Source: Gammaproteobacteria bacterium
Lineage (GTDB): Bacteria; Pseudomonadota; Gammaproteobacteria; SZUA-140
NCBI GenBank assembly: GCA_015491865.1
Contig: WFVD01000029.1
Span: 11,444 to 75,443 of the forward strand
Direction: 5' to 3'
Length of the DNA: 64,000 bases
Of this stretch, positions 1-13,107 are shown in pieces (the first letter of the stretch is position 1; each line of letters opens with the position of its first letter). Under the pieces are notes generated by a model. It did not search any database and was not told where the DNA came from. It saw nothing but the letters and a program-made list of their open reading frames with translations. Position numbers and translations under genes: made by a program.

Positions 1-389
1 ACCACCAGCGCAATACCTGCGACGATGATCACCATCCACCCTTCAATAATCTGCGGCTCATAAATCCGCCATAACGCCTCGTAAATCAGGTAAAGACCGA
101 CTATCACCAGTGTCACAAGATTAATGAGTGCGGCGATCACTTCTGCCCGTTTGTAACCAAACGTTTTAAAGTGGTCTGCGGGCTGCCTGCCGATCTTGCG
201 CGCAACCAGAGCGATCAACAATGATGCCGCATCACTAAAGTTATGCAGCGCATCGGCAATCAGAGCCAGACTGCCGGAGACAATGCCGCCGATTATCTGC
301 GCCAGTGTCAGCAACATATTGATGGTGATGGCGACAAAGAGCCGCCGATCACCCATCGTCTCTACCTCATGGTGGTGTTCATGTCCCAT
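1..389 (-). CDS. czcD: Cation diffusion facilitator (CDF) family divalent-metal efflux protein, CzcD-like. The N-terminal part lies in the window and the gene continues past coordinate 1.
   Basis: Reverse-strand translation from the ATG at 389 gives MGHEHHHEVETMGDRRLFVAITINMLLTLAQIIGGIVSGSLALIADALHNFSDAASLLIAL...EPQIIEGWMVIIVAGIALVV. This carries the His-rich N-terminus and the TM2 'SLALLADAxH..D' signature of CDF transporters. It lies directly downstream of czcCBA. It is absent from the ORF track because it runs off the window edge. Confidence 0.7.
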   Translation of the reverse strand, partial: MGHEHHHEVETMGDRRLFVAITINMLLTLAQIIGGIVSGSLALIADALHNFSDAASLLIALVARKIGRQPADHFKTFGYKRAEVIAALINLVTLVIVGLYLIYEALWRIYEPQIIEGWMVIIVAGIALV

Positions 390-436: not shown

Positions 437-1339
437 TTACCAGCGTAGCGCCATCTTCATACCGAAAGTTGTTGTGCCAATGTAGTTGGTTTGTGTCGCC
501 CTGTCGAACCGGGTATCACTAACCCTCTCTGTTTCAAATTGAGGGCCGATCATTGGGCGCAACGTTACCTCGCTCTCTTTACCAAACCAGCCTTCAACTG
601 TCCTGTTCATTGCCCCCATCGGGTCTGTCATCACCATTATAAATGTGTCGGTGCCACTCCTTTCGCTCAGCGGTTTTTTCTCAATACCGGCGCGTACATC
701 CATAAAGTATTTACCGACAAAATAGCCCGCAACCGGCGTTACGATCAGATCCTGTATCGAAGGGTTCTCAAAAAAGGCCTCAGCTCCAAACTCATACAAT
801 GACGACAGGGTTACTGCATACAGAAACGAACCCTTCGGCCCAAAACCGCGCTCCTGAGCACGTACATAGTAGACACCACCCCAGTAGGGATGCAGAATGT
901 AGTTAATCCACAATTGATCTTTATCCCAGACAATCTTACTGACCTTATCTTTATATTGCTGAAAACTGAAGTCTTCCTTGGTCTGATCTGACCAGCCGGA
1001 GATGCTTTCAGGTGCAATCCACAGTGCGCCGATGATGGAAAACTGATAGGCCAGAAAATAGGCCGTATCTTTTTTCAGCCCATCCAGGTCGGGACCTTCT
1101 GAAGCCTCAGCTGGCAACGACGCTTCTGTAAGCGACAAAGTCAGGCCCGATGAATTTCCGCCGCTACTCGCCCCCGCACTGCTCGCCAATAAGTCCAGCT
1201 TGTAGGCTTGTTCAAAATCAAACTGCGATATCGGCGGGGACAGCCTGGGGTTCTCCCCAACCTCTCCCCAGGCAACAACAGGTGCCAATAAAAGCCCAGC
1301 TACGACACCCAGCACATTAGCTGTCAAACACTTACTCAT
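437..1339 (-). CDS. Hypothetical exported protein, possibly an outer-membrane beta-barrel, co-transcribed with czcA. It has a signal peptide, a Ser/Gly/Ala-rich linker and a C-terminal aromatic residue.
   Basis: A 300-aa ORF. Its ATG at 1339 sits 2 nt after the czcA stop codon (1342-1344). The N-terminus MMSKCLTANVLGVVAGLLLAPVVAWGE is signal-peptide-like. It contains the low-complexity stretch ASSAGASSGGNSSGLTLSLTEAS. The C-terminus ...TTFGMKMALRW ends in Trp, an OMP-like signature. I cannot assign a family from sequence alone. Confidence 0.45.
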   Translation of the reverse strand: MSKCLTANVLGVVAGLLLAPVVAWGEVGENPRLSPPISQFDFEQAYKLDLLASSAGASSGGNSSGLTLSLTEASLPAEASEGPDLDGLKKDTAYFLAYQFSIIGALWIAPESISGWSDQTKEDFSFQQYKDKVSKIVWDKDQLWINYILHPYWGGVYYVRAQERGFGPKGSFLYAVTLSSLYEFGAEAFFENPSIQDLIVTPVAGYFVGKYFMDVRAGIEKKPLSERSGTDTFIMVMTDPMGAMNRTVEGWFGKESEVTLRPMIGPQFETERVSDTRFDRATQTNYIGTTTFGMKMALRW

Positions 1340-1341
1340 CA

Positions 1342-4300
1342 CTACTTACCCTCATTTACTGATTTTGAAAAGAAACGGTACAACGCCGGGATGACAAACA
1401 GGGTTAAAAAGGTGGCTGTTAACAGCCCCCCTACAATCACTGTCGCCAGCGGTTTTTGAATTTCGGCACCAACGCCGGTGGATAGCAGCATCGGGATTAA
1501 GCCCAGCGCAGAGGTGATCGCCGTCATCAATACTGGACGCAGGCGCGAACTTGCGCCGTCGAACACCGCATCGGGAACAGAGAGACCACCCGCAACCCGC
1601 TGGTTAATGCTCTCCACCATCACCACCCCATTGAGTACAGCGACACCAAACAGGGTGATAAAGCCGATAGAACTCGGCACCGAAAGATACTGGCCAGAAA
1701 AATAGAGCGCAAACACACCCCCAATAACCGCCAGCGGCACATTGAGCAGAATCAACATCGCCTGCCCCATGGAGTTAAAGGCAAAATAGAGCAGCAGGGC
1801 GATCAGCGCAATGGAGATCGGCACCACTGTGCTGAGCCGTTTTTGTGCCCGCTGCTGGTTTTCAAACTGACCGCCGATATCGACCGAATAGCCGGTCGGC
1901 AGATCCACCTGCTGCTCAATGGCGAGGCGGATATCGGCCACTACGTTGCCCATGTCGCGCCCCTGCACATTGGACTGAATCACCACGCGGCGCTGCACAT
2001 CATCCCGACGCACCTGCGGTGGGCCCGATTCTATATTGATCTGCGCCACATCACCCAGGCGCACCCAGGCACCGGTGGGGGATTGCAGACGCAGATCGGC
2101 AATGGCATCGGGATTGGTGCGGAACGGTTCGGCCAGACGCACGTAGATGTCATAACGTTCGTTGCCATTGATGATCTGCCCGGCCGCCCGGCCGCCGAGT
2201 CCATCACTCACCACGGCCATCACATCGCCCACGGCCAGGCCAAAACGGGAAAGCTGATCCCGATCAGGCCTGACGATCAACTGCGCCTCACCGGCGATCT
2301 GCTCCATGGCCACATCCTGAGCACCGTCCACACTCTGCACCGCCTTCTCAATCTCTTTGCCTTTCTCTTCCAGCACTGCCAGATCCGGCCCAAACAGCTT
2401 AATCGCCAGCTGCGCCCGTACCCCGGAGAGCAGCTCATCAACACGGGTGGCGATGGGTTGCGAAAAGTTCAGCAGCAGCCCTGGGTGCTGCTCCAGTTTT
2501 AACGCCATCAGGTTTTGCAGGGTCTGGCGATCCGGTGCGCTGCTCCACTGATTCACCGGCTTGAGGCCAATGTAGATTTCAATATTATTGACCGGTTCCG
2601 GATCACCCCCAATCTCAGGGCGGCCCACACGGCTCAGCGCGTAATTGACTTCCGGGAACTCCAGTAACATCGCCTCCAGCTTGGGGGCAACCTCCAGTGC
2701 AGTCTCCAGGCTGGACGAAGGAGCGAGCGTAACACGCAGGTTAATCGTCCCCTCCTCCAGCTCCGGCACAAACTCCGTGCCAATTTGCGGCACCAGCGCC
2801 AACGCAGAAATCAGCAGTAACACCGCACCCGAGACGACAAATTTACCGTGCTGCAGCGCCCAGCCCAGCGCATGACGATAGAGTTTATCTAACGGCCTGA
2901 GCACAAAACTTTCGCGCTGCCGTATGCCGTGACGAAAGAGATAGGTGGCCAGCGCCGGCACAATAATCAGCGCCACAAACAGCGCTGCGATAATCGCCAG
3001 CATGATACTGATCGCCATCGGCTGAAAGAGCTTCGCCTCAACCCCTTCAAAACTAAACAGTGGCATAAAGACCACCAGAATGATGGCGGTCGCGAAAAAG
3101 ACCGGTCGCGCCACCTCTCTGCCCGCCTGTTGCAGGCGCAGTGCAATACCTTCGCCACGGTCGCGGCGTACATCATGTGGATCACGGTCATCGCTGCCAA
3201 CCCGCGCCTGCACCTCTTTATCATGCTCGGCATCGGGATGGGAGAGATGTTTAAACATATTGTCCACCATCACCACCGAGCCATCCACCAGCATGCCAAT
3301 CGCCACGGCAATACCGCCCAGCGACATCAAGTTGGCAGAGAGCCCCAGCCACGCCATCACCATCAGGGCGATACCGATGGAGATAGGGATGGAGATCAGC
3401 ACCAACAACGTGGCACTCAGGTTCATCAAAAAAAGCGCCAACACCACCACAATAAAGACAAAGGCGAGCAGCAGCGCGTTGACCACGGTGGTAACCGCCT
3501 GTGAGATGAGGTCGGACTGGTCATAAAAGACCTCAAACCGCACCCCGTCAGGCAGCGCCTGCTGAATCAGCTTCGCCTGCTGGTTGATACCGTCGATAGT
3601 GCTTTTGGTATTGGCCCCCATCCGTTTTAACACAATGCCGGCCACCACCTCACCCAACGGTTCGGCCTGACCCTGCGCGTTGCGCCGCGTCATGCTCACC
3701 GCACCCTGGCGTATCTCACTGCCGAGGGAGACTTCCGCTACCTGCGACACGGTGACCACGGTGCCATCAACCGTTTTTAACGGAATCTGGCGCAGCTCCG
3801 CCAACCCCTTCTGGTCGTGGCTCAACCAGCCGACACCACGTATCACCAGCTGCTCCTGGCCACGATCCATATACCAGCCACCCGCATTGGAGTTGTTGTT
3901 CTCCAGCGCATCGATCACATCCTGCTGCCTCAGGCCATACGCCAGCAGGCGCGATGGATTCAAATTGACCTGGTATTGACGAACATGGCCACCAAAAGAG
4001 AGTACATCAGTCACTCCATCCACCGGCATCAGCAGTAGCTTGACCACCCAGTCGTTAAGACTTCGCAGGGTCATCGCATCCAGAGTGGAGTCGGCATCGG
4101 TCACCAGCATGTACTGATAGACCTGCCCCAGACCCGAGGTGTTGGGACCAATCTCTGGCGTGCCCACCCCTTCAGGAATCAGCTCTTTTGCAGATTGCAG
4201 ACGCTCAAACACCAGCTGGCGAGCAAAGTAGATATCTGTCCCCTCTTTAAATACCACGGTGATACCCGAGAGACCGGTCTTGGAGATAGAGCGCACCTGC

Positions 4301-4539
4301 TCCACATCAGGCAGCGCGTACATCACCGCCTCAATAGGAAAGGTGATCAGTTTTTCAACCTCTTCAGAGGCGAGTCCCGGCGCTTCGGTATTAATAGAGA
4401 CCTGCACATTGGTCACATCGGGAAAGGCATCGAGATTGAGTTTAGGAATGATAACGGAGGCCGACGCCGCCAGCGCCAGCAGGCCGATGACCACCAGTAA
4501 ACGGTTGGTGACAGACCAGTCGATTAATTTATTTAACAC
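1342..4539 (-). CDS. czcA: Heavy-metal efflux RND transporter, inner-membrane pump (CzcA/CusA family, HME-RND).
   Basis: A 1065-aa ORF with the 12-TM RND architecture and two large periplasmic loops. It is full-length similar to the CzcA/CusA family (N-terminus MLNKLIDWSVTNRLLVVIGLLALAA...). It is flanked by a membrane-fusion gene and an outer-membrane-factor gene. Confidence 0.9.
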   Translation of the reverse strand: MLNKLIDWSVTNRLLVVIGLLALAASASVIIPKLNLDAFPDVTNVQVSINTEAPGLASEEVEKLITFPIEAVMYALPDVEQVRSISKTGLSGITVVFKEGTDIYFARQLVFERLQSAKELIPEGVGTPEIGPNTSGLGQVYQYMLVTDADSTLDAMTLRSLNDWVVKLLLMPVDGVTDVLSFGGHVRQYQVNLNPSRLLAYGLRQQDVIDALENNNSNAGGWYMDRGQEQLVIRGVGWLSHDQKGLAELRQIPLKTVDGTVVTVSQVAEVSLGSEIRQGAVSMTRRNAQGQAEPLGEVVAGIVLKRMGANTKSTIDGINQQAKLIQQALPDGVRFEVFYDQSDLISQAVTTVVNALLLAFVFIVVVLALFLMNLSATLLVLISIPISIGIALMVMAWLGLSANLMSLGGIAVAIGMLVDGSVVMVDNMFKHLSHPDAEHDKEVQARVGSDDRDPHDVRRDRGEGIALRLQQAGREVARPVFFATAIILVVFMPLFSFEGVEAKLFQPMAISIMLAIIAALFVALIIVPALATYLFRHGIRQRESFVLRPLDKLYRHALGWALQHGKFVVSGAVLLLISALALVPQIGTEFVPELEEGTINLRVTLAPSSSLETALEVAPKLEAMLLEFPEVNYALSRVGRPEIGGDPEPVNNIEIYIGLKPVNQWSSAPDRQTLQNLMALKLEQHPGLLLNFSQPIATRVDELLSGVRAQLAIKLFGPDLAVLEEKGKEIEKAVQSVDGAQDVAMEQIAGEAQLIVRPDRDQLSRFGLAVGDVMAVVSDGLGGRAAGQIINGNERYDIYVRLAEPFRTNPDAIADLRLQSPTGAWVRLGDVAQINIESGPPQVRRDDVQRRVVIQSNVQGRDMGNVVADIRLAIEQQVDLPTGYSVDIGGQFENQQRAQKRLSTVVPISIALIALLLYFAFNSMGQAMLILLNVPLAVIGGVFALYFSGQYLSVPSSIGFITLFGVAVLNGVVMVESINQRVAGGLSVPDAVFDGASSRLRPVLMTAITSALGLIPMLLSTGVGAEIQKPLATVIVGGLLTATFLTLFVIPALYRFFSKSVNEGK

Positions 4540-4554: not shown

Positions 4555-5841
4555 TTAATGGTTATGCGGATCAAACCCGCCTTTCGCCATTTCAGACTGC
4601 ACAAAAAAAGCGCCCTTACCGACAATGGTCGTGCCTTCGGCAACGCCTTCGATCAGCATACGGTCACCCACGGTCTCCAGCACTTTAATCTCTTTCGGTT
4701 CAAAGCGGTCAGGCGCGCTCTGCACAAACAGCTGCCAGTCACCGTCGGGGCTGCGCAACACGGCCTCAACAGGCACAACAATACCGTCACGTTTATGGCT
4801 TCCTTCGATCACGGCGGTCACAAACTGGCCGGGGTGGAGTGCGTCATCGCGATTTGCCACTTCAATGTGGACAGCCAGGGTGCGCGTCGTCTCATCGAGG
4901 GTGTGACGCGCCTGCGTCACTTTTCCGCTCAGCCACTGATTGCCGACCTGAATACGCGCAGGTGACCCCAGTTCGATACGGGCAGCATCTTCCGGCGTCA
5001 GGCGCGCTTCGACCCACAGCAGAGACTCATCGCTAATCGTCATCAACACATAACCTGGTTCAATCAGTTCACCAACAACAAAGCCGTCACTGATGATGGT
5101 GCCATCCTGGAATGAGAGCAGATGAAATTCACCCGTAGCACGAGTCGCATCACCTGTCTCGATCAGGGAGTTGATCTGTTTTCTGGTCATGCCGTAGGCG
5201 CTAACTCTGGCATAGGCCTGTTGATAAGCGATCTGCGCGGCAACAAAACGTTTTTCGGAAACCACTTTACGACCCAGTTTTTTAACCCGTCGCAGTTCGA
5301 CATTGGCCTCCATCAGGGCACCTTGCGCCTCCGCCATCTCGACACTGGAGAGCGTCACCAGGCGCTCACCTTTTTTAACATGGTCACCAAGGCGCGCATG
5401 ACGCGCCATCACCTGCGCCGGGGTTCGCGGGGTCACGATGGTGGTGCGATAGGCGTTGAGCATCGCCTCGCCGGGTGCCTTAATTGCATCGCCCAGTGAC
5501 TGGCGCCTGACAACCATTGTCTCTATCCCTGCAATGCGACGCTGCTCAGTGCTCAATTCAGCATCACTGGCCGCTTCACCATGGCCATGGCCGTCGTCTT
5601 CCCCACCGTGACCACCATGATCACCATGCCCCTGCTCTTCATGCCCATCATCTTCGTGGTCATGCCCCTCTTTTTCATGTTGATGGCCTTCATCATCATG
5701 GTCATGTTTTTCTGTCGCTATCTCGATGCCTGAGAAATCATCCATACCATCCTCTTCACCATGGTGATGCCCTTTTTCAGCTAACAGAAGAGTGGGGGTA
5801 GAAAGGCTCAATAACATTAATAAAACAAGTCTGTTTTTCAT
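4555..5841 (-). CDS. czcB: RND efflux periplasmic adaptor (membrane fusion protein, CzcB/CusB-like) with a His/Asp/Glu-rich N-terminal extension.
   Basis: A 428-aa ORF with a signal/anchor sequence followed by a ~70-aa H/D/E-rich stretch (HHHGEEDGMDD...HDHDDEGHQHEKEGHDHEDDGHEEQGHGDHGGHGGEDDGHGHGE). The biotinyl/lipoyl-like and beta-barrel MFP core follows. A 15-nt gap separates it from czcA. Confidence 0.85.
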   Translation of the reverse strand: MKNRLVLLMLLSLSTPTLLLAEKGHHHGEEDGMDDFSGIEIATEKHDHDDEGHQHEKEGHDHEDDGHEEQGHGDHGGHGGEDDGHGHGEAASDAELSTEQRRIAGIETMVVRRQSLGDAIKAPGEAMLNAYRTTIVTPRTPAQVMARHARLGDHVKKGERLVTLSSVEMAEAQGALMEANVELRRVKKLGRKVVSEKRFVAAQIAYQQAYARVSAYGMTRKQINSLIETGDATRATGEFHLLSFQDGTIISDGFVVGELIEPGYVLMTISDESLLWVEARLTPEDAARIELGSPARIQVGNQWLSGKVTQARHTLDETTRTLAVHIEVANRDDALHPGQFVTAVIEGSHKRDGIVVPVEAVLRSPDGDWQLFVQSAPDRFEPKEIKVLETVGDRMLIEGVAEGTTIVGKGAFFVQSEMAKGGFDPHNH

Positions 5842-5845
5842 TTTT

Positions 5846-7180
5846 TTACTCTCCAGAATTCTTTGGCTGTGCGATGCTGGTCGGTGCTAGACCTAGCCAG
5901 TCGTCAACCTGACCAGAAGCATCCAGCCAGCCGATTGCCGCCTGCCAGACCTCACCTTTCAGGGTTGTGGCTGCCGTCTGGGTATCGATGTTCTGTTTGG
6001 CCTGAATCAAAAAGTCGGTTGCGGTCAATTCACCCGCCTGCCACATCTGCTCCAGCAGTTTCATCTGTTCTCGATGCGCCTGTTGACCCGTGGCCACCCA
6101 GGCTCGCCACGCACTGGCGGTACTGTTAAAGCGCCCCAGGCTTCCTTCAAGTCGGGCGCTGGCGCGGCGGTATGCATCGCGGTAAATCAGCTCCTCAGCA
6201 GTGGCCTCGTGAGAGGCGACCAACACTTCAGCCTTAAAGTTATTGCGTACAAATAGTGGGATTTCAAAGCTCAGTCCGAGCAGCGAGTCAGAGCCGTCAC
6301 GACCGGCACGAAGCCCGATAGTGGGATCTGCGCGACTTTCACGTTTAATGAGGTCGATCCGTGCTTTCGCCGCCTCCATACGGCTGCGTAACACCGTAAG
6401 CGCAGGCAAGGAGTGGAGCAGTGTGGTATCCACCCGCGCCGGTGGAGATGCCAGCTCACCTGGTAGCTGCGGCCACTGCGCCAGCTCTGAACCGGCAACA
6501 AACCCGGTAACAGCCTGTAGTGCCGCTTCGGCCTGAGCCAGCTCACTCTCACTCGCCGCCTGCTGCATCAGGGCCTCACTATAGGTAACCTGGGCCAGGG
6601 TTCCTTCCAGCGCACCCATATCCCCCGCCGCCTGGCGCTGCTTCACTGCATCGATAAACCCTTTCATTAACTGGCTACGACGCTGTGCCAGCGCCAGCAT
6701 CTCCTGCGCAGTGGCGTACTGTGTCAATGCGTTCAGGGTTTCGACTGCAATACGCTGCCGGGTCTCTTGCAATTCGGCACTGACGGCCAGCACCTCCTGG
6801 TCAGCAATACGGCTCTGAGCCTCACGCTTGTCATTCCAGTCCAGCGTTTGATTAAAACCGATTGAGGTTGTGTTGACACCCGTTCGCTCAGCATCGATGA
6901 CCAGATCAGGGTTGTAGATGGGCCGCCCCGCACCATCAGCTCGCGCCATAGCGGCTTCAACAACAGCATCTGCCCCCTGCATCGCCGGGCTCTCTGCCCA
7001 GACCTGCTGAATAAAAGCTCGCAACGCTGGATCAACCTTGAGCTGACCATTAGCGCTAATCGATAGCGACGTTTGATTCAATTCGGGGGCGACTGCTTTA
7101 TAGTCAGCCGCAGCTGCAATCCATCCAGGAAACAACAGGCAGGCGAACAGGCCCGTCAATAGATATCTTTTAGAAAACAT
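5846..7180 (-). CDS. czcC: Outer-membrane efflux protein (TolC/CzcC family outer membrane factor).
   Basis: A 444-aa ORF with a signal peptide, an OEP-type duplicated helical/beta architecture, and coiled-coil-rich Ala/Gln/Leu repeats. It lies 4 nt upstream of czcB on the same strand. Confidence 0.8.
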   Translation of the reverse strand: MFSKRYLLTGLFACLLFPGWIAAAADYKAVAPELNQTSLSISANGQLKVDPALRAFIQQVWAESPAMQGADAVVEAAMARADGAGRPIYNPDLVIDAERTGVNTTSIGFNQTLDWNDKREAQSRIADQEVLAVSAELQETRQRIAVETLNALTQYATAQEMLALAQRRSQLMKGFIDAVKQRQAAGDMGALEGTLAQVTYSEALMQQAASESELAQAEAALQAVTGFVAGSELAQWPQLPGELASPPARVDTTLLHSLPALTVLRSRMEAAKARIDLIKRESRADPTIGLRAGRDGSDSLLGLSFEIPLFVRNNFKAEVLVASHEATAEELIYRDAYRRASARLEGSLGRFNSTASAWRAWVATGQQAHREQMKLLEQMWQAGELTATDFLIQAKQNIDTQTAATTLKGEVWQAAIGWLDASGQVDDWLGLAPTSIAQPKNSGE

Positions 7181-7262: not shown

Positions 7263-7583
7263 TTAAATGATGGGGGGTCTTAGGAGTGGAGCAATATAGC
7301 GCAGCGCTAACACAGGGGATAGCGCCACAAAGCCTTCATGACCGCTGGCCATGAATGGTGAGGATTGATTGAAGATAAGCCCTATCAGATGAGCGGCACT
7401 ATGACAGCAGTGGTCATCCTGATGCACTACACCGTTATCGGGCTGCTCACTGCTGACCTCAATTAACAGATCAATCGCAGCCGAATTATGCCCTGCTATC
7501 GCCTCTGGATGGTTATCCAGGGCAAAGGCTAGTCCTGAACTCAGGTTGGCTAACAGCAGCAGACAGATCAGTAGTTTCTTCAT
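7263..7583 (-). CDS. Small secreted His/Cys-containing protein, CzcI-like putative periplasmic metal-binding/regulatory protein.
   Basis: A 106-aa ORF. The N-terminus MKKLLICLLLLANLSSGLAFA is a signal peptide. The mature part contains HPEAIAGH and DDHCCHSAAH motifs. It occupies the czcI position immediately upstream of czcC on the same strand, as in czcNICBAD-type operons. The assignment rests on position and motifs only. Confidence 0.4.
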   Translation of the reverse strand: MKKLLICLLLLANLSSGLAFALDNHPEAIAGHNSAAIDLLIEVSSEQPDNGVVHQDDHCCHSAAHLIGLIFNQSSPFMASGHEGFVALSPVLALRYIAPLLRPPII

Positions 7584-7687
7584 GGTGGGCGCTAATTTAG
7601 GTGAATCGTTGTCATCCTGTCAACAGAAAAATAGCAACATCAGATGCTATGCAGGCTTTATCGGCAGACCGCCTGTTCACATTAAAC

Positions 7688-7846: not shown

Positions 7847-7894
7847 CCCTAAGCCGCTCTCAGGCTGTTTTCATATTATTTGCAGGGTTTCAAA

Positions 7895-9103
7895 ATGAGC
7901 AGAGTCTTAATCATTGGCGCTGGTGGTGTTGGGCGCGTCGTCACTCACAAATGCGCGCAGCTGCCCACTGTTTTCAGTGATATCTGGCTCGCCAGCCGTA
8001 CCGTCTCGAAATGTGAACAGATTGCGAACGAGATCGGTGGTGGGCGTATCAAAACCACACAGGTCGATGCCGACAATGTGGCTGAACTGGTCGCATTGAT
8101 TCGCAGGGTCGAACCCAGGATGATCATCAATGTGGCCCTTCCCTACCAGGACCTCACCATTATGGATGCCTGTCTGGCGTGTGGCATTGACTACCTCGAC
8201 ACCGCTAATTATGAACCAGAAGATGAGGCTAAATTCGAATACCGATGGCAGTGGGACTATCAGGAGCGCTTCAGGAAGGCGGGCATCACCGCCCTGCTCG
8301 GCTCCGGTTTTGATCCCGGCGTGACCAATGTCTTCACTGCCTATGCACTCAAACATCACTTTGACCAGATCGATACAATTGATATCCTGGACTGCAATGC
8401 GGGAGACCATGGCTACCCGTTTGCCACCAATTTCAACCCTGAGATCAACATCCGAGAGGTGACCGCCAACGGCCGTTACTATGAGAATGGGCAATGGCTA
8501 GAGACCCAGCCAATGAGCGTTTCACGCCTGTTTAATTTTCCGGAGATCGGCCCACGCAAGATGTTTCTACTCTACCATGAGGAGATGGAGTCGCTCGCCA
8601 GGCACATCCCCGGGGTAAAACGGATGCGTTTCTGGATGACCTTTGGTGACAGCTATCTGAAACACCTTGAGGTGTTCCAGAATATCGGCCTCGATAGCAT
8701 CGAACCGGTCGAGTTCCAGGGACAACAGATTGTACCATTACAGTTTCTTAAGGCGCTGCTACCCGATCCTGCAACACTTGGCCCACGCACTAAAGGGAAA
8801 ACCAACATCGGCTGTATCATCAAAGGGTCAAAAGGGGGGGAATCGCTATCTCGCTACCTTTATAACGTCAGTGATCATGAAAGCTGCTACAGAGAGACCC
8901 ATGCACAGGGGGTTTCATACACCACGGGGGTCCCCGCAATGATCGGTGCCAAGATGATGCTGGAAGGAAAGTGGAAAAAGCCAGGCGTCTGGAATATGGA
9001 GCAGTTTGATCCCGACCCATTTATGGATGACCTGAATAGATATGGCCTGCCGTGGCACGATATAACGTGCGATATCGATATCGATACGCTTCCACACGAA
9101 TAA
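7895..9103 (+). CDS. Carboxynorspermidine/carboxyspermidine dehydrogenase (saccharopine-dehydrogenase family).
   Basis: MSRVLIIGAGGVGRVVTHKCAQ... has a Rossmann GxGxxG motif and full-length collinearity with Vibrio CANSDH (...GFDPGVTNVF..IDTIDILDCNAGDHG..FATNFNPEIN...MEQFDPDPF). The ORF track begins at a TTG at 7880. The ATG at 7895 (MSRVL) is more plausible. Confidence 0.85.
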   Translation: MSRVLIIGAGGVGRVVTHKCAQLPTVFSDIWLASRTVSKCEQIANEIGGGRIKTTQVDADNVAELVALIRRVEPRMIINVALPYQDLTIMDACLACGIDYLDTANYEPEDEAKFEYRWQWDYQERFRKAGITALLGSGFDPGVTNVFTAYALKHHFDQIDTIDILDCNAGDHGYPFATNFNPEINIREVTANGRYYENGQWLETQPMSVSRLFNFPEIGPRKMFLLYHEEMESLARHIPGVKRMRFWMTFGDSYLKHLEVFQNIGLDSIEPVEFQGQQIVPLQFLKALLPDPATLGPRTKGKTNIGCIIKGSKGGESLSRYLYNVSDHESCYRETHAQGVSYTTGVPAMIGAKMMLEGKWKKPGVWNMEQFDPDPFMDDLNRYGLPWHDITCDIDIDTLPHE

Positions 9104-9124
9104 ATCAGAGACCTCACTTAAGCG

Positions 9125-10252
9125 ATGGCAGACCAACGTCAACCACCCTCGCCCTGCTATCTACTGGAGGAGAGAAATCTCAGGGATAACCTTGAGCTGA
9201 TCGATCGCGTACAACGTGAAACAGGCTGCACCATACTCCTTGCACTAAAAGGGTTTGCGATGTGGTCCACCTTTCCACTCATACGCCACTATCTCCCCGG
9301 CTGCGCTGCGAGTTCGTATAACGAAGCGCGCCTTGCACAACAACACTTCGGCGGGCATCTTCATCTTTATGCGCCCGCCTATAGCGATGCTGAATTTCCT
9401 GAACTGGTTAAACTTGCCGACCGTATCTCGTTTAACTCGCTCAGCCAGTGGTACCGTTTTTCAGATCAAACAGCTGACGTTTCATGTGGTCTACGTCTGA
9501 ACCCTGCTATTAATGAAGTTGAAACCGCTCTCTACAATCCATGCGATGAGCAGTCTCGCCTCGGCATACCCGCCGCAGCGCTCAGCGCAGGCCTCCCTAT
9601 CGGTATTGAGGGGATACATCTGCATGCGCTCTGTGAATGTGATGCTGATGCAACCGGGCGACTGATTGAGGCGGTTGAACACCGTTTTGGGCACCTGCTT
9701 AAGAAACTGAAGTGGATTAATCTGGGCGGTGGTCATCTGATGACACGACAGGGCTATGATGTGGCCCGGCTGATCGATCTCTTAAAAGCTTTCCGCGAAC
9801 GCCACCCCTCATTAGAGGTGGTGCTGGAACCGGGCTCGGCCATCGCCTGGGATTGTGGCACCCTGGTCTGCACGGTGCTCGATGTGATCGAGCGTGGTGG
9901 CGTTCAGATTGCGCTGCTGGACATCTCCGCCACCGCCCATATGCCCGATGTGCTTGAGATGCCTTACCGAGCCACACTACGCGGTGCAGCACTCCCCACA
10001 GAAAAACCGTTTACCTATCGACTCGGGGGGATGAGCTGCCTCGCAGGTGATGTGATTGGCGACTACTCATTTGATCAACCATTAAAGATCGGCGACCGCC
10101 TGATCTTTGAAGATATGCTGCACTACACCATGGTAAAGAGTACCCTGTTCAATGGGGTTAACCACCCTGCCATTGCCGTTCAGCATGAAGATGGCGAAAT
10201 AGAAGTAGTGCGCGATTTCGACTACCACGATTATGAGAGACGCCTTTCATAG
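9125..10252 (+). CDS. nspC: Carboxynorspermidine/carboxyspermidine decarboxylase (PLP-dependent, NspC).
   Basis: 375 aa, collinear with NspC (PYYLLEE..L..N.....R....G..ILLALK.F..W..F.....YL.G...SS..E..L....FGG..H.Y....S...F...). It starts 22 nt downstream of the dehydrogenase stop. Confidence 0.85.
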   Translation: MADQRQPPSPCYLLEERNLRDNLELIDRVQRETGCTILLALKGFAMWSTFPLIRHYLPGCAASSYNEARLAQQHFGGHLHLYAPAYSDAEFPELVKLADRISFNSLSQWYRFSDQTADVSCGLRLNPAINEVETALYNPCDEQSRLGIPAAALSAGLPIGIEGIHLHALCECDADATGRLIEAVEHRFGHLLKKLKWINLGGGHLMTRQGYDVARLIDLLKAFRERHPSLEVVLEPGSAIAWDCGTLVCTVLDVIERGGVQIALLDISATAHMPDVLEMPYRATLRGAALPTEKPFTYRLGGMSCLAGDVIGDYSFDQPLKIGDRLIFEDMLHYTMVKSTLFNGVNHPAIAVQHEDGEIEVVRDFDYHDYERRLS

Positions 10253-10265
10253 CGATACCGCGCGT

Positions 10266-12176
10266 TTAGCCCGGGCTAAACGGAACCGTCGGTGTATCCT
10301 CTTCCAGATAGGTATACCCTTTTAACCCCTCCTGATAAAAGCGTAAAAAAGTGTTCGCCTCACGAGCGTTGATACGCCCTTCACTACGCGCCTCCTGCAC
10401 CTGGCGCCGCATCCGGTCAACCAGGACGGTTTCATGAAACTGCACATAGTTCAGCACATCGGCAACCGTCTCACCCTCGACCACCTGTTCAAGCTCATAC
10501 TGATCACCATCCATACGAATATGCACCGCATGGGTATCGCCAAAAAGATTATGCAGGTCTCCGAGGATCTCCTGATAAGCCCCGGTTAAAAATATCCCGA
10601 GCAGGTAACGCTCTCCTGGATTTTCAGCATGCAGCGGTAATGTCTTAGCATGGCCGTTTTCTAACGGAAAATTAAGCAATGTTCCATCTGAATCACAGGT
10701 CACATCCACCAGTATCGCATCCTGCGTGGGCTTTTCATCGAGCCGATGAACCGGCATCACCGGGAAAACCTGTTTAATAGCCCACGCATCTGGCAGCGAC
10801 TGAAATACCGAAAAATTACAGAAGTAACGGTCCGCCGCCTGAGTTCTTAATTCCGGCATCAACTGTTCAATCTCATTCTCATCCAGTCGCTGCATAAGAG
10901 CATTAACCAGATGCCAGTAGATATCTTCCATCAAAGCGCGATCAGAGAGCGTGGCGTGACCGAGACTAAACAGCTTATTCATATCCTCACGCAATGAGAT
11001 GGCGATATGCATCGCTTCGCGTGGCGACATCTCATCCAGCTCATTCAGCGTCTCCCATATCTGACGAAGTTGAGAGGGGGTGCCATCAGCGGGTGGCTGC
11101 AGAGGCTGGTCACTCATACGTTTCGTAATACCCAGCACATCTACAATCAATACGGCGTGATGTGCCACCAGAGCACGTCCCGATTCCGAGATAATATCAG
11201 GATGTTCCAGCCCCTCGTCATTACAGGCCTGCTGCATCGTCCAGACAATCTCATTGGCGTATTCCTGCAGGCTATAGTTAACTGAGGCGATGTTACCGTC
11301 GTAGTTCACCCCCAGTCCGCCGCCGACATCGATAAACGCTATCGGGGCACCAAGGCGACGCGCCTCCACAAAGTATCGCGCCGCCTCCTGCATGGCGTCC
11401 TTAATACTGCTGATCTCCGGTACCTGACTGCCGATATGAAAATGGAGCAGGTTCAGCGATGATAGCTGCCCCGCCTCTTTTAGTTTGTTGATTGCATCCA
11501 GCAACTCCGAAGGCGACAGACCAAACTTCGACAGATCACCGCCCGAACTATCCCACTTCCCTTTACTGCTGGCGGCAAGCCGGCAGCGTAGCCCAATCAA
11601 CGGTTTCACCTGCAGCCGCTGCGCAGTGTTTAATATCAGCTCAAGCTCATTCGGTTTTTCAATCACGATGAAGATGCGCTTGCCCATCTTTAAACCCATC
11701 AACGCCAGCTCGATAAACTCCTGGTCCTTATAACCGTTACAGATGATTAACCCTTCAACATCCTCCAGCATCGCCAGCGTCGCGTGCAGCTCCGGCTTGG
11801 AACCCGCCTCCAGCCCCCAGTTAAAGGCAGCACCATACTCGATGATCTCTTCAACCACCTGTCGCTGCTGGTTCACTTTTATTGGATAGACACCGTAATA
11901 TTTGCCCTGATAGGCCGCCTCCTCGCGCGCGATGCTAAAGCGCTTATGAATCTGCTCCATGCGTTTTTTTAGCAGGTCAGAGAAACGGAGGAGCAGTGGT
12001 GGGTGGAGATTCTGCAGCGCCAGTTCATCACAGAGCTTCTTGAGATCAATACGATTACCGTTTGCGACTGCCTCAACATTGCCGACATCATTAACATGAA
12101 AAAACCCACCGCCCCAGCCCGCTACCTGATAGAGTTGCGCGGCATCACTCACGCACCACTTTTGATCACTCATCAT
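10266..12176 (-). CDS. speA: Biosynthetic arginine decarboxylase (PLP-dependent).
   Basis: The ~637-aa protein contains WxxxDAAQLYQVAGWGGGFFHVNDVGNVEAV and the HFHIGSQ PLP/K motif, and is full-length SpeA-like. The ORF track extends to 12227. I place the start at the MMSDQKW methionine (12176), which removes overlap with speB. Confidence 0.85.
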   Translation of the reverse strand: MMSDQKWCVSDAAQLYQVAGWGGGFFHVNDVGNVEAVANGNRIDLKKLCDELALQNLHPPLLLRFSDLLKKRMEQIHKRFSIAREEAAYQGKYYGVYPIKVNQQRQVVEEIIEYGAAFNWGLEAGSKPELHATLAMLEDVEGLIICNGYKDQEFIELALMGLKMGKRIFIVIEKPNELELILNTAQRLQVKPLIGLRCRLAASSKGKWDSSGGDLSKFGLSPSELLDAINKLKEAGQLSSLNLLHFHIGSQVPEISSIKDAMQEAARYFVEARRLGAPIAFIDVGGGLGVNYDGNIASVNYSLQEYANEIVWTMQQACNDEGLEHPDIISESGRALVAHHAVLIVDVLGITKRMSDQPLQPPADGTPSQLRQIWETLNELDEMSPREAMHIAISLREDMNKLFSLGHATLSDRALMEDIYWHLVNALMQRLDENEIEQLMPELRTQAADRYFCNFSVFQSLPDAWAIKQVFPVMPVHRLDEKPTQDAILVDVTCDSDGTLLNFPLENGHAKTLPLHAENPGERYLLGIFLTGAYQEILGDLHNLFGDTHAVHIRMDGDQYELEQVVEGETVADVLNYVQFHETVLVDRMRRQVQEARSEGRINAREANTFLRFYQEGLKGYTYLEEDTPTVPFSPG

Positions 12177-13107
12177 CAACCCCTGCTTGCGACCCATCCC
12201 TTGGGCGCTGAGCGTAACCGTTAGCACTGCCCCAGTATGAGATACATTTCAGCACCAGTTTGGCAGCCATCATTTCAGAAACCTGGCTGGGCTCAGGTGC
12301 AAGCTCTACAATGTCGATGTTGCGTAGATCCACCGCACGGTTATCGGTGAGGGTCTGCAGCAGATCAAGCCCCTGATGCCACGACAGCCCTCCCGGTTGC
12401 GGTGTTCCCACACCGCCAACCAGTGCCGGGTCATAACCATCCATATCGATACTCAACCAGACCGGGCCACTGAGCGCTGCCAGCTGATCAAGTAGCGCCT
12501 GCCACACTGCCGGCTGCTGCAGGGGGCGATCAAACCAGGCGGTGATGCCGTCGTCTGCCGCAATCATCGCCGCTTCATCAGCATGTAGTGAGCGGATACC
12601 GATCTGTATCAGTTGATAACCCCGCTCTCTGATACGGTACATCGGGCAGGCGTGGTTATAGATCGAACCGTGATAACGGGGGCGAAGATCTGCATGGGCA
12701 TCAATATGCACCACCGTGCCCCCTTCTGGCATGCGTGCAAATAGCATCTCTGGCGTAATGGAATGCTCTCCTCCCAGTGCGATCAACAGCGCCTCTTCGG
12801 GTAGCTGGGCAACCCTCTCCGCGAGACGGCGATGATATGCCGCCAGCGGCTCCTCCGCTACATCTTCGACCGCAGGCAGCACTGCGAGCCTAAGGTGCAG
12901 TAGTGGACTCCAGCCCATATCCTCTTCATAAAACTCCAGCTGCTCACTCGCGGCTAATATCGCCGCGGGGCCATTGGCGGTACCTGACTTATAGGTCACA
13001 GTCTGTTCATGCGGTACCGGAAGAATCAGCACATCAGCGTCGGCAGTAGCACCATTGGGCAGTGAGAGGAATTGCATCGTTCTTTTCATAGGGGCGAATT
13101 TTGCCAC
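12166..13107 (-). CDS. speB: Agmatinase (ureohydrolase / arginase family).
   Basis: Carries the GGEHSITP, IDAHADLR and SIDMDGYDPA metal-binding motifs of the arginase/agmatinase family. It lies immediately upstream of, and is co-oriented with, speA. Confidence 0.75.
   Translation of the reverse strand: MAKFAPMKRTMQFLSLPNGATADADVLILPVPHEQTVTYKSGTANGPAAILAASEQLEFYEEDMGWSPLLHLRLAVLPAVEDVAEEPLAAYHRRLAERVAQLPEEALLIALGGEHSITPEMLFARMPEGGTVVHIDAHADLRPRYHGSIYNHACPMYRIRERGYQLIQIGIRSLHADEAAMIAADDGITAWFDRPLQQPAVWQALLDQLAALSGPVWLSIDMDGYDPALVGGVGTPQPGGLSWHQGLDLLQTLTDNRAVDLRNIDIVELAPEPSQVSEMMAAKLVLKCISYWGSANGYAQRPRDGSQAGVDDE

What the first reader, a model, noticed from the sequence alone, without database searches (positions are those of the whole stretch)
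437..1342. Unassigned exported/beta-barrel-like gene translationally coupled to czcA inside the czc operon
A 300-aa ORF starts 2 nt after the czcA stop. It has a signal peptide, a Ser/Gly-rich linker and an OMP-like C-terminal ...MALRW. In classical czcNICBADRS operons nothing sits between czcA and czcD. I could not place this gene in any family from sequence. It could be an accessory porin or metal-binding outer-membrane component of the efflux system.
Basis: seen in the sequence. Interest (0 to 1): 0.5.

Follow-up and report, generated by a model that had tools for sequence, protein, structure and literature searches.

The report
Lipid-enzyme-like gene inside metal-efflux operon
The unassigned gene between czcA and czcD is not a porin but an exported member of the uncharacterised DUF3943 ("YfiM-Griddle", Lipocone) family of predicted lipid-head-group enzymes, and one small clade of that family sits after a heavy-metal efflux pump gene in uncultured gammaproteobacteria, which hints at a link between metal efflux and outer-membrane lipid chemistry.

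Summary
The ORF is real. It lies on the minus strand at 437..1339 and encodes 300 aa. Its ATG is 2 nt after the czcA stop, and czcD starts 47 nt after its own stop.

It can be placed in a family: Pfam DUF3943, E=1.5e-29. A 2025 comparative-genomics paper calls this family YfiM-Griddle and places it in the Lipocone superfamily of predicted lipid-head-group phosphoesterases/transferases.

AlphaFold gives a confident helical core (pLDDT >90) followed by one C-terminal beta-hairpin. It is not a beta-barrel. The family's polar residues H150, E183, E187, E191 and D197 are present. The mature protein has one His and no Cys, so a metal-binding role is not supported.

All 13 informative loci of the closest clade place the gene directly after czcA. 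dN/dS is 0.07-0.11. More distant DUF3943 genes are not czc-linked and often follow a DUF3187 outer-membrane barrel gene. Sister czc operons have czcA followed directly by czcD. The gene is therefore a clade-specific insertion.

Best reading: an outer-membrane-anchored lipid-head-group enzyme co-expressed with metal efflux. The biochemical function is untested. This is a new variant of a known kind, of moderate interest.

The parts
437..1339 (-). CDS of the 300-aa DUF3943 / YfiM-Griddle protein (stop TAA 437..439; alternative GTG start at 1342)
   Evidence: ORF list and sequence. Pfam PF13084 E=1.5e-29. 391 homologs. dN/dS 0.07-0.11.
1265..1339 (-). Signal peptide, residues 1-25, predicted SPase I cleavage after AWG; no lipobox
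   Evidence: It is the only segment with a 19-residue Kyte-Doolittle mean above 1.6 (value 2.17). The A-x-G at -3/-1 is read directly from the sequence.
1091..1264 (-). Low-complexity Ser/Ala/Gly/Leu-rich linker, residues 26-83, specific to the czc-linked clade (semi-conserved LSLSLTEAS-like motif)
   Evidence: pLDDT <50. Composition. The alignment shows that only the closest ~27 homologs share it.
674..1090 (-). Four-helix Lipocone core, residues 84-222: H1 85-108, H2 143-163, H3 167-189, H4 195-220. Candidate active-site residues are H150 (890..892), E183 (791..793), E187 (779..781), E191 (767..769) and D197 (749..751).
   Evidence: AF2 pLDDT 85-98. These residues are invariant in 70 and in 265 aligned family members. 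The His(H2)/Glu(H3)/Asp(H4) pattern is the one described for the superfamily.
584..655 (-). C-terminal two-helix hairpin, residues 229-252, with an MTDP turn (the family's 'hhsP' motif)
   Evidence: AF2 helices 229-238 and 240-252. D239 and P240 are conserved in 254 of 265 sequences. The feature is described for the Griddle family.
440..571 (-). C-terminal amphipathic beta-hairpin, residues 257-300, ending in the OMP-type beta-signal FGMKMALRW
   Evidence: AF2 strands 257-269 and 285-299, pLDDT 60-75. C-terminal profile of 120 homologs. An 'extended beta-hairpin (f)' is listed as fused to YfiM-Griddle in the paper's supplement.
1342..4539 (-). czcA-like HME-RND transporter gene, immediately upstream in the same operon
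   Evidence: Pfam ACR_tran E=8e-272. TIGR00914 CusA/CzcA, 1014 bits, cutoff 701.
4555..5841 (-). czcB-like periplasmic adaptor with a His/Asp/Glu-rich N-terminal extension
   Evidence: Pfam HlyD_D23. TIGR01730 passes its cutoff. BSH_CzcB is recorded in the ortholog.
5846..7180 (-). czcC-like outer-membrane factor (OEP/TolC family)
   Evidence: Pfam OEP E=4e-24.
7263..7583 (-). 106-aa exported small ORF with an HQDDHCCHSAAH motif; first gene of the operon in all relatives
   Evidence: ORF list. Cluster c9 is conserved in L001, L002, L004, L005, L007 and L009 and in L081 and L082. No Pfam or NCBIfam hit.
7594..7623 (-). Promoter-like site TTGACA-18-TAAATT upstream of the small ORF; candidate operon promoter
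   Evidence: Consensus scan, 10/12 matches. This is a pattern match only.
1..389 (-). 5' part of the czcD-like CDF transporter gene (runs off the window); its ATG is 47 nt after the DUF3943 stop, with no terminator-like site between
   Evidence: Translation. TIGR01297 CDF, 128 bits, cutoff 82. Intergenic sequence. Terminator scan.

Best explanation
The gene encodes a Sec-exported member of the DUF3943 / YfiM-Griddle family of the Lipocone superfamily.

Shown: family membership; a confident four-helix cone fold followed by a two-helix hairpin and a C-terminal beta-hairpin; presence of the family's invariant polar residues (His150 on H2, Glu183/Glu187 on H3, Glu191 at the end of H3, Asp197 on H4); helices too weakly hydrophobic to be inner-membrane TM segments; a conserved OMP-type C-terminal beta-signal; and conserved same-strand placement directly after czcA in one monophyletic clade, under purifying selection.

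Inferred: after export, the beta-hairpin anchors the protein in the outer membrane. This would need pairing with a beta-barrel partner or with other copies, because two strands cannot stand alone in a membrane. The amphipathic cone would then sit at the periplasmic face of the outer membrane. There it would cleave or exchange phosphate-linked head groups of envelope lipids (phospholipid, lipid A or polyprenyl-phosphate-linked). This is the chemistry proposed for the superfamily from its two characterised members, PTDSS1/2 and TelC.

The gene appears to be transcribed with the small ORF, czcC, czcB, czcA and czcD from one promoter. Its product would therefore be made whenever the Zn/Co/Cd-type efflux system is made. 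The most likely physiological role is remodelling of anionic, cation-binding lipid head groups of the outer membrane under metal stress. The logic resembles PmrAB/ColRS-controlled LPS modifications that raise Fe/Zn/Al tolerance. It is an accessory, not a core pump part, because sister czc operons lack it.
For: Family: Pfam PF13084 at 102.4 bits against a cutoff of 27. The family is named YfiM-Griddle (DUF3943) and predicted to act in the outer membrane on lipid head groups.

Fold: the AF2 model has residues 79-255 helical at pLDDT 85-98, then strands 257-269 and 285-299.

Catalytic-type residues: H150, E183, E187, E191 and D197 are invariant in 70 sequences and in 264-265 of 265 sequences.

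Export and outer-membrane targeting: the signal peptide is the only TM-grade hydrophobic segment. The best mature window scores 1.25, against 3.1 for CzcA TM helices. The C-terminal pattern [WFY]-G-h-x-h-x-h-x-W is conserved.

Operon: 2-nt and 47-nt gaps, no terminator-like site at either junction, and a promoter-like site upstream of the first ORF.

Conservation of linkage: czcA lies directly upstream in 13 of 13 informative loci, namely the window, L001, L002, L004-L007, L009, L010, L081, L082, and L084, L085. czcD lies downstream in 10 of 15 loci.

One clade: the czc-linked proteins form a single branch of the NJ tree.

Selection: dN/dS is 0.07-0.11, like czcB and czcC.

Rationale from the literature: LPS head-group modification contributes to Zn/Fe tolerance under ColRS/PmrAB.
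Against: No DUF3943 protein has been characterised biochemically. The only experimental mention found is unexplained binding of H. pylori HP0803 to GTP- and dihydroneopterin-triphosphate-coated particles.

The hairpin has only moderate confidence (pLDDT 60-75).

The linkage to czc is confined to one clade, so shared ancestry alone could explain the synteny. Only 2 of 80 metagenomic CzcA relatives carry the gene, and closely related operons run czcA directly into czcD. The pump therefore does not need it.

Unlike most family members, this one has no OMP-barrel gene directly adjacent. There is no expression data and no metal phenotype.
Confidence: 0.45

Rival explanations
1. Hitch-hiking neighbour. 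The gene is an ordinary outer-membrane lipid-homeostasis DUF3943 gene that landed once between czcA and czcD in one lineage. It has been inherited with the operon since then, and its function has nothing to do with metals.
For: The family as a whole is linked to OMP barrels and lipid or protein trafficking genes, not to efflux. The czc-linked proteins are one clade. Only 2 of 80 CzcA relatives have the gene, and sister operons run czcA directly into a CDF gene: L089, L118, L128, L131, L132, L136.
Against: The gene is retained in 13 of 13 informative loci while the protein diverged to 56% identity. It is always on the same strand directly after czcA, with tight coupling in the window (2 nt) and no terminator-like site. 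dN/dS is as low as for czcB and czcC. It stays with czcA even where czcD is absent downstream (L006, L009, L010, L084).
Confidence: 0.3
2. Non-catalytic structural accessory. The beta-hairpin and helical domain dock onto CzcC, or onto the MetA-like barrel encoded after czcD in relatives, to stabilise, gate or position the outer-membrane exit of the pump. No lipid chemistry is involved.
For: The gene sits between pump genes. It has an OMP-type beta-signal on a two-strand hairpin that must pair with other strands. The clade has its own N-terminal linker with a semi-conserved motif that could be a docking peptide. A Phenol_MetA_deg-like barrel lies two to three genes downstream in L002, L003, L005, L011 and L082.
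Against: The invariant His/Glu/Glu/Glu/Asp set and about 20 further invariant core positions are exactly those of the whole family, irrespective of partner. That pattern is expected for an enzyme rather than a clade-specific docking module. The downstream barrel is absent in L006, L009, L010 and L084.
Confidence: 0.12
3. One reading: an accessory porin or beta-barrel, or a metal-binding outer-membrane component. In its only surviving form, many copies would each contribute their hairpin to an oligomeric barrel.
For: Signal peptide plus a conserved OMP-like C-terminal strand pattern. Two long amphipathic strands per chain. An oligomeric barrel cannot be excluded with a monomer model.
Against: 60% of the protein is a confident helical domain, and there are only two strands. 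The mature chain has 1 His and 0 Cys. The Pfam family is not a barrel family. In other members a separate barrel gene (DUF3187) sits next to it.
Confidence: 0.05
4. An inner-membrane Lipocone. The N-terminal hydrophobic segment is an uncleaved anchor, or the four helices insert in the inner membrane, and the enzyme acts on the periplasmic leaflet of the inner membrane next to CzcA and CzcD.
For: The superfamily is thought to have begun as integral membrane proteins, and the YfiM clade straddles the membrane-propensity boundary. Both flanking genes encode inner-membrane transporters.
Against: The best mature 19-residue hydropathy window is 1.25, below the usual 1.6 threshold, against 3.1 for CzcA helices. 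An A-W-G cleavage motif is present. The conserved C-terminal beta-signal has no role in the inner membrane.
Confidence: 0.08

Closest known systems
YfiM-Griddle family (Pfam DUF3943, PF13084) of the Lipocone superfamily (Burroughs, Nicastro & Aravind 2025, eLife RP108061 / bioRxiv 10.1101/2025.01.14.632903)
   Same: Strong HMM match. Four-helix cone with a long H1-H2 linker. Invariant His (H2), Glu (H3) and Asp (H4). Two-helix hairpin with an hhsP (MTDP) turn. Fused extended beta-hairpin. Signal peptide. Gram-negative host. Predicted outer-membrane location.
   Different: Operon partner. [quoted passage not shown] They contain no RND, TolC, CDF or czc terms. This clade has no directly adjacent barrel gene and carries its own Ser/Ala/Gly-rich N-terminal linker.
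DUF3187-barrel-linked DUF3943 genes of other Gammaproteobacteria (e.g. L012/L013, sister branch in the tree)
   Same: 44-51% identical over the core. Same C-terminal hairpin and terminal Trp. Same invariant residues.
   Different: They are preceded by a DUF3187 outer-membrane barrel gene (14 loci), not by czcA. They lack the clade-specific N-terminal region.
PTDSS1/2 and TelC (the two biochemically characterised Lipocone enzymes)
   Same: Per the paper, the same predicted active-site layout and chemistry on phosphate-linked lipid head groups: head-group exchange, or cleavage of lipid II.
   Different: Very remote. No detectable sequence or structure match here. PTDSS1/2 is in the eukaryotic ER membrane and TelC is a secreted toxin. 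The substrates are unrelated to metal stress.
Metal-responsive envelope lipid modification (PmrAB/ColRS-controlled ArnT, EptA, CptA)
   Same: Functional logic only: changing phosphate head groups of envelope lipids to lower cation binding and raise Fe/Zn/Al tolerance.
   Different: Those enzymes are inner-membrane proteins of unrelated folds. They are regulated in trans by two-component systems and are not encoded inside an efflux operon.
CzcN of the Cupriavidus metallidurans pMOL30 czc cluster
   Same: An accessory membrane enzyme-like protein (annotated as isoprenylcysteine carboxyl methyltransferase family) of unknown role, encoded within a czc cluster.
   Different: Unrelated family. It lies upstream of czcI-czcCBA, not between czcA and czcD, and it is an inner-membrane protein.
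Outer-membrane lipid A-modifying enzymes PagP, PagL and LpxR (from general knowledge)
   Same: Enzymes resident in the outer membrane that remodel lipids in situ.
   Different: They are beta-barrel enzymes. This protein is helical with a single hairpin.

Membership tests
Pfam DUF3943 / YfiM-Griddle | Match to the PF13084 HMM above the gathering score | tested here: met
   102.4 bits against a cutoff of 27, E=1.5e-29. Residues 136-241 cover profile positions 2-108 of 108. All 120 listed homologs carry precomputed PF13084.
Pfam DUF3943 / YfiM-Griddle | Four-helix Lipocone core with a long H1-H2 linker | tested here: met
   AF2 helices 85-108, 143-163, 167-189 and 195-220 at pLDDT 85-98. The 109-142 linker contains short helices. 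I could not inspect 3D packing because no coordinates were returned.
Pfam DUF3943 / YfiM-Griddle | Conserved polar active-site positions: His on H2, Glu on H3, Asp on H4, and an acidic residue at the end of H3 | tested here: met
   H150, E183/E187, D197 and E191 are present. They are invariant in 70 sequences and in 264-265 of 265. Mapping them to the paper's positions is my inference from helix boundaries.
Pfam DUF3943 / YfiM-Griddle | C-terminal two-helix hairpin with an hhsP turn | tested here: met
   Helices 229-238 and 240-252 with the turn M-T-D-P (237-240). D239 and P240 are conserved in 254 of 265 sequences.
Pfam DUF3943 / YfiM-Griddle | Fusion or operonic linkage to an OMP beta-barrel ('nearly obligate' per the paper) | tested here: inconclusive
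   No barrel gene is adjacent, and no DUF3187 or MetA-like gene occurs anywhere in the 64-kb window. The window ends inside czcD. In relatives a Phenol_MetA_deg-like barrel lies 2-3 genes downstream in 5 loci and is absent in 4. CzcC, a TolC-type barrel, is in the operon.
Lipocone superfamily (relationship to PTDSS1/2, TelC, VanZ, Wnt/SAA) | Detectable structural or profile similarity to characterised members | tested here: inconclusive
Outer-membrane beta-barrel protein / porin | At least 8 antiparallel transmembrane beta-strands forming a closed barrel | tested here: not met
   Only two strands are predicted. Residues 79-255 are confidently helical.
Outer-membrane beta-barrel protein / porin | Signal peptide plus a C-terminal beta-signal (terminal aromatic; hydrophobic at positions 3, 5, 7 and 9 from the end) | tested here: met
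   Sequence ...F-G-M-K-M-A-L-R-W.
Canonical Czc components (CzcN/I/C/B/A/D/R/S/E) or periplasmic metal chaperones | Homology to a known Czc protein family, or a His/Cys/Met metal-site motif | tested here: not met
   DUF3943 is the only Pfam hit, and NCBIfam gives none. The mature protein has 1 His, 0 Cys and 8 Met with no clustered motif.

The most novel reading that the evidence does not exclude
A helical, outer-membrane-anchored lipid-head-group enzyme has been recruited as a dedicated fourth partner of an HME-RND (CzcCBA-type) metal efflux system. It would edit the phosphate head groups of outer-membrane lipids around the pump exit, possibly docked to CzcC through its beta-hairpin, so that exported Zn/Co/Cd is not recaptured by the envelope. 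If true, this would give the first physiological handle on the DUF3943/Griddle family. It would also show a direct genetic coupling between metal efflux and outer-membrane lipid chemistry.
Probability: 0.2. Interest if true: 0.65.

Novelty: new variant of a known kind. Interest (0 to 1): 0.4.

Why it matters
DUF3943 is a sizeable family: 2,453 clusters at 50% identity match the profile. It has no experimentally known function, and only computational predictions exist. A clade that is hard-wired into a metal-efflux operon offers a concrete and cheap experiment: compare czcCBA with and without the gene, and measure metal tolerance, the lipidome and lipid A. That experiment could reveal both the family's chemistry and an unrecognised envelope-remodelling layer of metal resistance. 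For annotation, the practical result is smaller. The gene should be labelled 'DUF3943 / YfiM-Griddle (Lipocone) family protein', not porin, OMP or metal-binding protein.

Tried and rejected
- NCBIfam scan of the protein: no family.
- AFDB50 fold search: the library was unavailable.
- Second DUF3943 copy, or a DUF3187/MetA-like barrel partner, elsewhere in the window: none.
- Test of whether the MetA-like barrel found after czcD in relatives is the same family as the DUF3187 barrels that precede other DUF3943 genes. Only a weak shared motif (GxGD...LPTG) was found: hhalign probability 60% over 38 columns, blastp E about 0.006. This is not enough to call it a relocated cognate partner.
- Plasmid collection (tblastn): 4 distant hits, none covering 80% of the query, so there is no sign of a plasmid-borne version of this clade.
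- The Lipocone paper and its 37 supplementary files were searched for efflux, RND, AcrB, TolC, CDF, Czc, HlyD and OEP. None was found in the sense of a domain association.
- Beta-barrel/porin and metal-binding readings: rejected on structure and composition.
- Inner-membrane 4-TM reading: disfavoured by hydropathy.
- No multimer or complex prediction, and no inspection of coordinates, was possible with the tools. The role of the hairpin therefore remains inferred.
Full report
**Observation**

The ORF exists as described, but on the minus strand at 437..1339. The upstream RND gene (1342..4539, -) ends in TAG. The junction reads GAGGGTAAG-TAG-TG-ATG, so the ATG lies 2 nt after the stop, behind a Shine-Dalgarno-like GAGGG. 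A GTG that overlaps the stop by 1 nt is the alternative start. The product is 300 aa.

- Residues 1-25 (MSKCLTANVLGVVAGLLLAPVVAWG) form the only segment with transmembrane-grade hydropathy. They end in an A-x-G cleavage motif, and there is no lipobox.
- Residues 26-83 are a Ser/Ala/Gly/Leu-rich low-complexity stretch.
- The protein ends in ...TTTFGMKMALRW.
- Forty-seven nucleotides after its TAA stop, the CDF (czcD-like) gene begins and runs off the window.
The RND protein passes the CusA/CzcA NCBIfam model (1014 bits, cutoff 701). The adaptor and OEP genes precede it. The downstream fragment passes the CDF model.

**What it is**

NCBIfam has no model for it.

A search of the 5.8-billion-protein collection gave 391 homologs, all carrying PF13084. 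Several are named 'DUF3943 domain-containing protein' by NCBI. A profile search of 1.84 billion cluster representatives found 2,453 clusters at E<=0.001.

Only three papers in the full-text library mention DUF3943, of which two distinct works were listed.

- One is the 2025 Lipocone paper of Burroughs, Nicastro and Aravind. It renames the family YfiM-Griddle and places it in a superfamily of four-helix 'cone' domains. These are predicted to remove or swap phosphate-linked lipid head groups, and the characterised members are PTDSS1/2 and TelC. The paper predicts that Griddle proteins work in the outer membrane. It describes them as nearly always fused or operonically linked to OMP beta-barrels.
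- The other notes only that H. pylori HP0803, a DUF3943 protein, bound triphosphate-ligand-coated particles for unexplained reasons.

No member has a demonstrated function.

**Structure**

An AlphaFold2 model was built on a 70-sequence alignment (A1). Mean pLDDT is 75.5, and 144 residues are above 90.

- Residues 1-78 are disordered.
- Residues 79-255 are confidently helical, with helices 85-108, 143-163, 167-189, 195-220, 229-238 and 240-252.
- Two long beta-strands follow, at 257-269 and 285-299, with pLDDT 60-75.

This matches the published description of the Griddle family: a four-helix core with a long H1-H2 linker, a C-terminal two-helix hairpin with an hhsP turn (here M-T-D-P), and a fused 'extended beta-hairpin'. 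It is not a beta-barrel.

**Conserved residues**

In A1, and in a 265-sequence alignment that includes the diverse cluster representatives, these positions are invariant: D139, N146, Y152, G154, S179, E183, E187, E191 and D197. H150 is present in 264 of 265.

By helix position these include the His(H2)/Glu(H3)/Asp(H4) set plus the acidic residue at the end of H3. The paper proposes this set as the ancestral Lipocone active site. The window protein keeps all of them, so it is predicted to be catalytically competent.

The mature chain has one His (H150), no Cys and no clustered metal-ligand motif. This argues against a metal-binding role.

**Localisation signals**

Outside the signal peptide, the most hydrophobic 19-residue window scores 1.25. 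CzcA's TM helices score 3.1. The helices are therefore amphipathic and do not look like inner-membrane anchors.

The C-terminal strand follows the classical OMP pattern. Among 120 homologs, 104 end in W and 8 in F. Positions -2, -4 and -6 are aliphatic, -8 is aromatic, and -7 is Gly in 108.

A two-strand hairpin cannot sit alone in a membrane. It must pair with a barrel partner or with other copies. Which of these applies is unknown.

**Genomic context**

A scan of one genome per GTDB species returned 228 relatives, of which the best 80 loci were kept. tblastn with the window's Czc proteins split these loci sharply.

- The eleven closest loci (56-96% identity, sharing the N-terminal region) are all in czc operons.
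- All 69 more distant loci (<=52% identity) are not.

Adding two contigs found by exact protein look-up (L081, L082) and two found from the CzcA side (L084, L085), czcA lies directly upstream in 13 of 13 loci where upstream sequence exists. The typical order is: small 105-aa ORF, czcC, czcB, czcA, DUF3943, czcD.

- czcD follows in 10 of 15 loci.
- In five loci a Phenol_MetA_deg-like OMP barrel and a DUF4198 gene come next.
- The czcA-to-gene spacer is 2 nt here and in L001, but about 95-300 nt in other members.

In an NJ tree of the core domain, the czc-linked proteins form one clade. It lies next to proteins that follow a DUF3187 outer-membrane barrel gene.

Among the non-czc loci, 14 have a DUF3187 barrel immediately upstream. 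Thirteen, from Thiodiazotropha and tubeworm symbionts, have a HAMP-cyclase and a TPR gene upstream.

From the CzcA side, only the two most similar metagenomic relatives with enough downstream sequence (93% and 91% identity), out of 80 in all, carry the gene. Several sister operons at about 70-88% identity run czcA straight into a CDF gene: L089, L118, L128, L131, L132 and L136.

The gene is therefore a clade-specific insertion into an ancestral czcCBA-czcD operon. It is an accessory, not a core pump component.

Against two close orthologs its dN/dS is 0.07 and 0.11. czcA gives 0.03-0.05, and czcB and czcC give 0.06-0.10.

A promoter-like site (TTGACA-18-TAAATT) lies upstream of the small first ORF. 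No terminator-like site lies at either junction of the gene. These are pattern matches only.

**Mechanism**

I commit to the following, and mark what is inferred.

- Shown: family, fold, intact conserved polar set, export signal, OMP-type C-terminus, conserved operon position, purifying selection.
- Inferred, step 1: the protein reaches the outer membrane, and its hairpin anchors it there. The helical domain precedes the hairpin, and OMP termini are periplasmic. The cone would therefore face the periplasmic side, at the inner leaflet.
- Inferred, step 2: it cleaves or exchanges phosphate-linked lipid head groups, as proposed for the superfamily.
- Inferred, step 3: because it is co-expressed with a Zn/Co/Cd-type efflux system, its role is to remodel cation-binding anionic head groups of the envelope under metal stress.

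Step 3 follows the logic documented for PmrAB/ColRS-controlled LPS modifications, which contribute to Fe/Zn/Al tolerance.

An accessory enzyme-like membrane protein of unknown role inside a czc cluster has a loose precedent in CzcN, which is annotated as an isoprenylcysteine carboxyl methyltransferase family protein.

My confidence by claim:

| Claim | Confidence |
|---|---|
| Family identity | about 0.95 |
| Outer-membrane location | about 0.6 |
| Lipid head-group catalysis | about 0.5 |
| Metal-related role | about 0.35 |

**Rivals**

- Hitch-hiking is the strongest rival. The linkage is confined to one clade, and the pump works without the gene in sister operons. Long retention, tight spacing and strong constraint argue for a selected association.
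- A purely structural docking role is possible. It does not explain why the clade keeps every family-wide invariant polar residue.
- The porin or metal-binding reading fails on structure and composition. Only an oligomeric-barrel version survives, at low probability.
- An inner-membrane location is disfavoured by hydropathy and by the beta-signal.

**Novelty and verdict**

The gene is a clear member of a known, computationally described but experimentally uncharacterised family. Public MAG annotations already label its orthologs as DUF3943 proteins.

What appears unreported is the czc-embedded clade. The Lipocone paper and its supplements were searched for efflux, RND, TolC, CDF, Czc, AcrB, HlyD and OEP. 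None of these appears as an associated domain. No other paper in the library links DUF3943 to metal resistance.

I rate this a new variant of a known kind, with moderate interest (0.4). It also gives a testable entry point into the function of a large DUF. All functional statements remain inference.

Noticed in passing
window 7263..7583 (-): A 106-aa ORF with a signal peptide and an HQDDHCCHSAAH motif. It is the first gene of the operon, just downstream of a promoter-like TTGACA-18-TAAATT at 7623..7594. It is conserved upstream of czcC in L001, L002, L004, L005, L007, L009, L081 and L082, but has no Pfam or NCBIfam hit. It may be a CzcI-like periplasmic metal-binding or regulatory protein.
   Followed up: partly
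window 4555..5841 (-), residues ~24-90 of the CzcB-like adaptor: An unusually long His/Asp/Glu/Gly-rich N-terminal extension (EKGHHHGEEDG...HDHDDEGHQHEKEGHDHEDDGHEEQGHGDHGGHGGEDDGHGHGE). This is probably a periplasmic metal-binding tail.
   Followed up: no
L082 12960..20900; also L002, L003, L005, L011 downstream of czcD: In relatives, czcD is followed by a Phenol_MetA_deg-like outer-membrane barrel, a DUF4198 (CbiK/NikK-like periplasmic) gene, an Aq_1264_TM gene and a second czcCBA-type operon. Together these form a larger metal-homeostasis island. The window ends before this region.
   Followed up: partly
L038, L041, L052, L055, L060, L061, L066, L068, L070, L071, L073, L078, L080 (about 3 kb upstream of the DUF3943 match): In Thiodiazotropha, Sedimenticolaceae and tubeworm-symbiont genomes, DUF3943 is preceded by a conserved HAMP-adenylate/guanylate cyclase gene and a TPR protein gene. 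No OMP barrel gene was seen among the clustered neighbours within four genes. I did not see this context for the family in the passages of the Lipocone paper that I read.
   Followed up: no
L008 1400..5450: A second DUF3943 locus in MAG M_MetaBat.104. Here DUF3943 is followed by a czcA-like gene (62-67% identity) that is broken into pieces around a 370-aa ORF, possibly an insertion element.
   Followed up: no
window 7880..12227: Next to the czc operon lie polyamine-biosynthesis-type genes: saccharopine-dehydrogenase-like (7880..9103 +), Orn/DAP/Arg decarboxylase family (9125..10252 +) and arginine decarboxylase (10266..12227 -). They are syntenic with the 93%-identical contig L081.
   Followed up: no
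L086 (metagenome contig Ga0256839_1001524), 4756..5798: This CzcA C-terminus is 91% identical to the window's, yet the 1 kb of sequence downstream shows no DUF3943 gene. This may be a recent loss or a different junction within the otherwise DUF3943-bearing CzcA clade.
   Followed up: no
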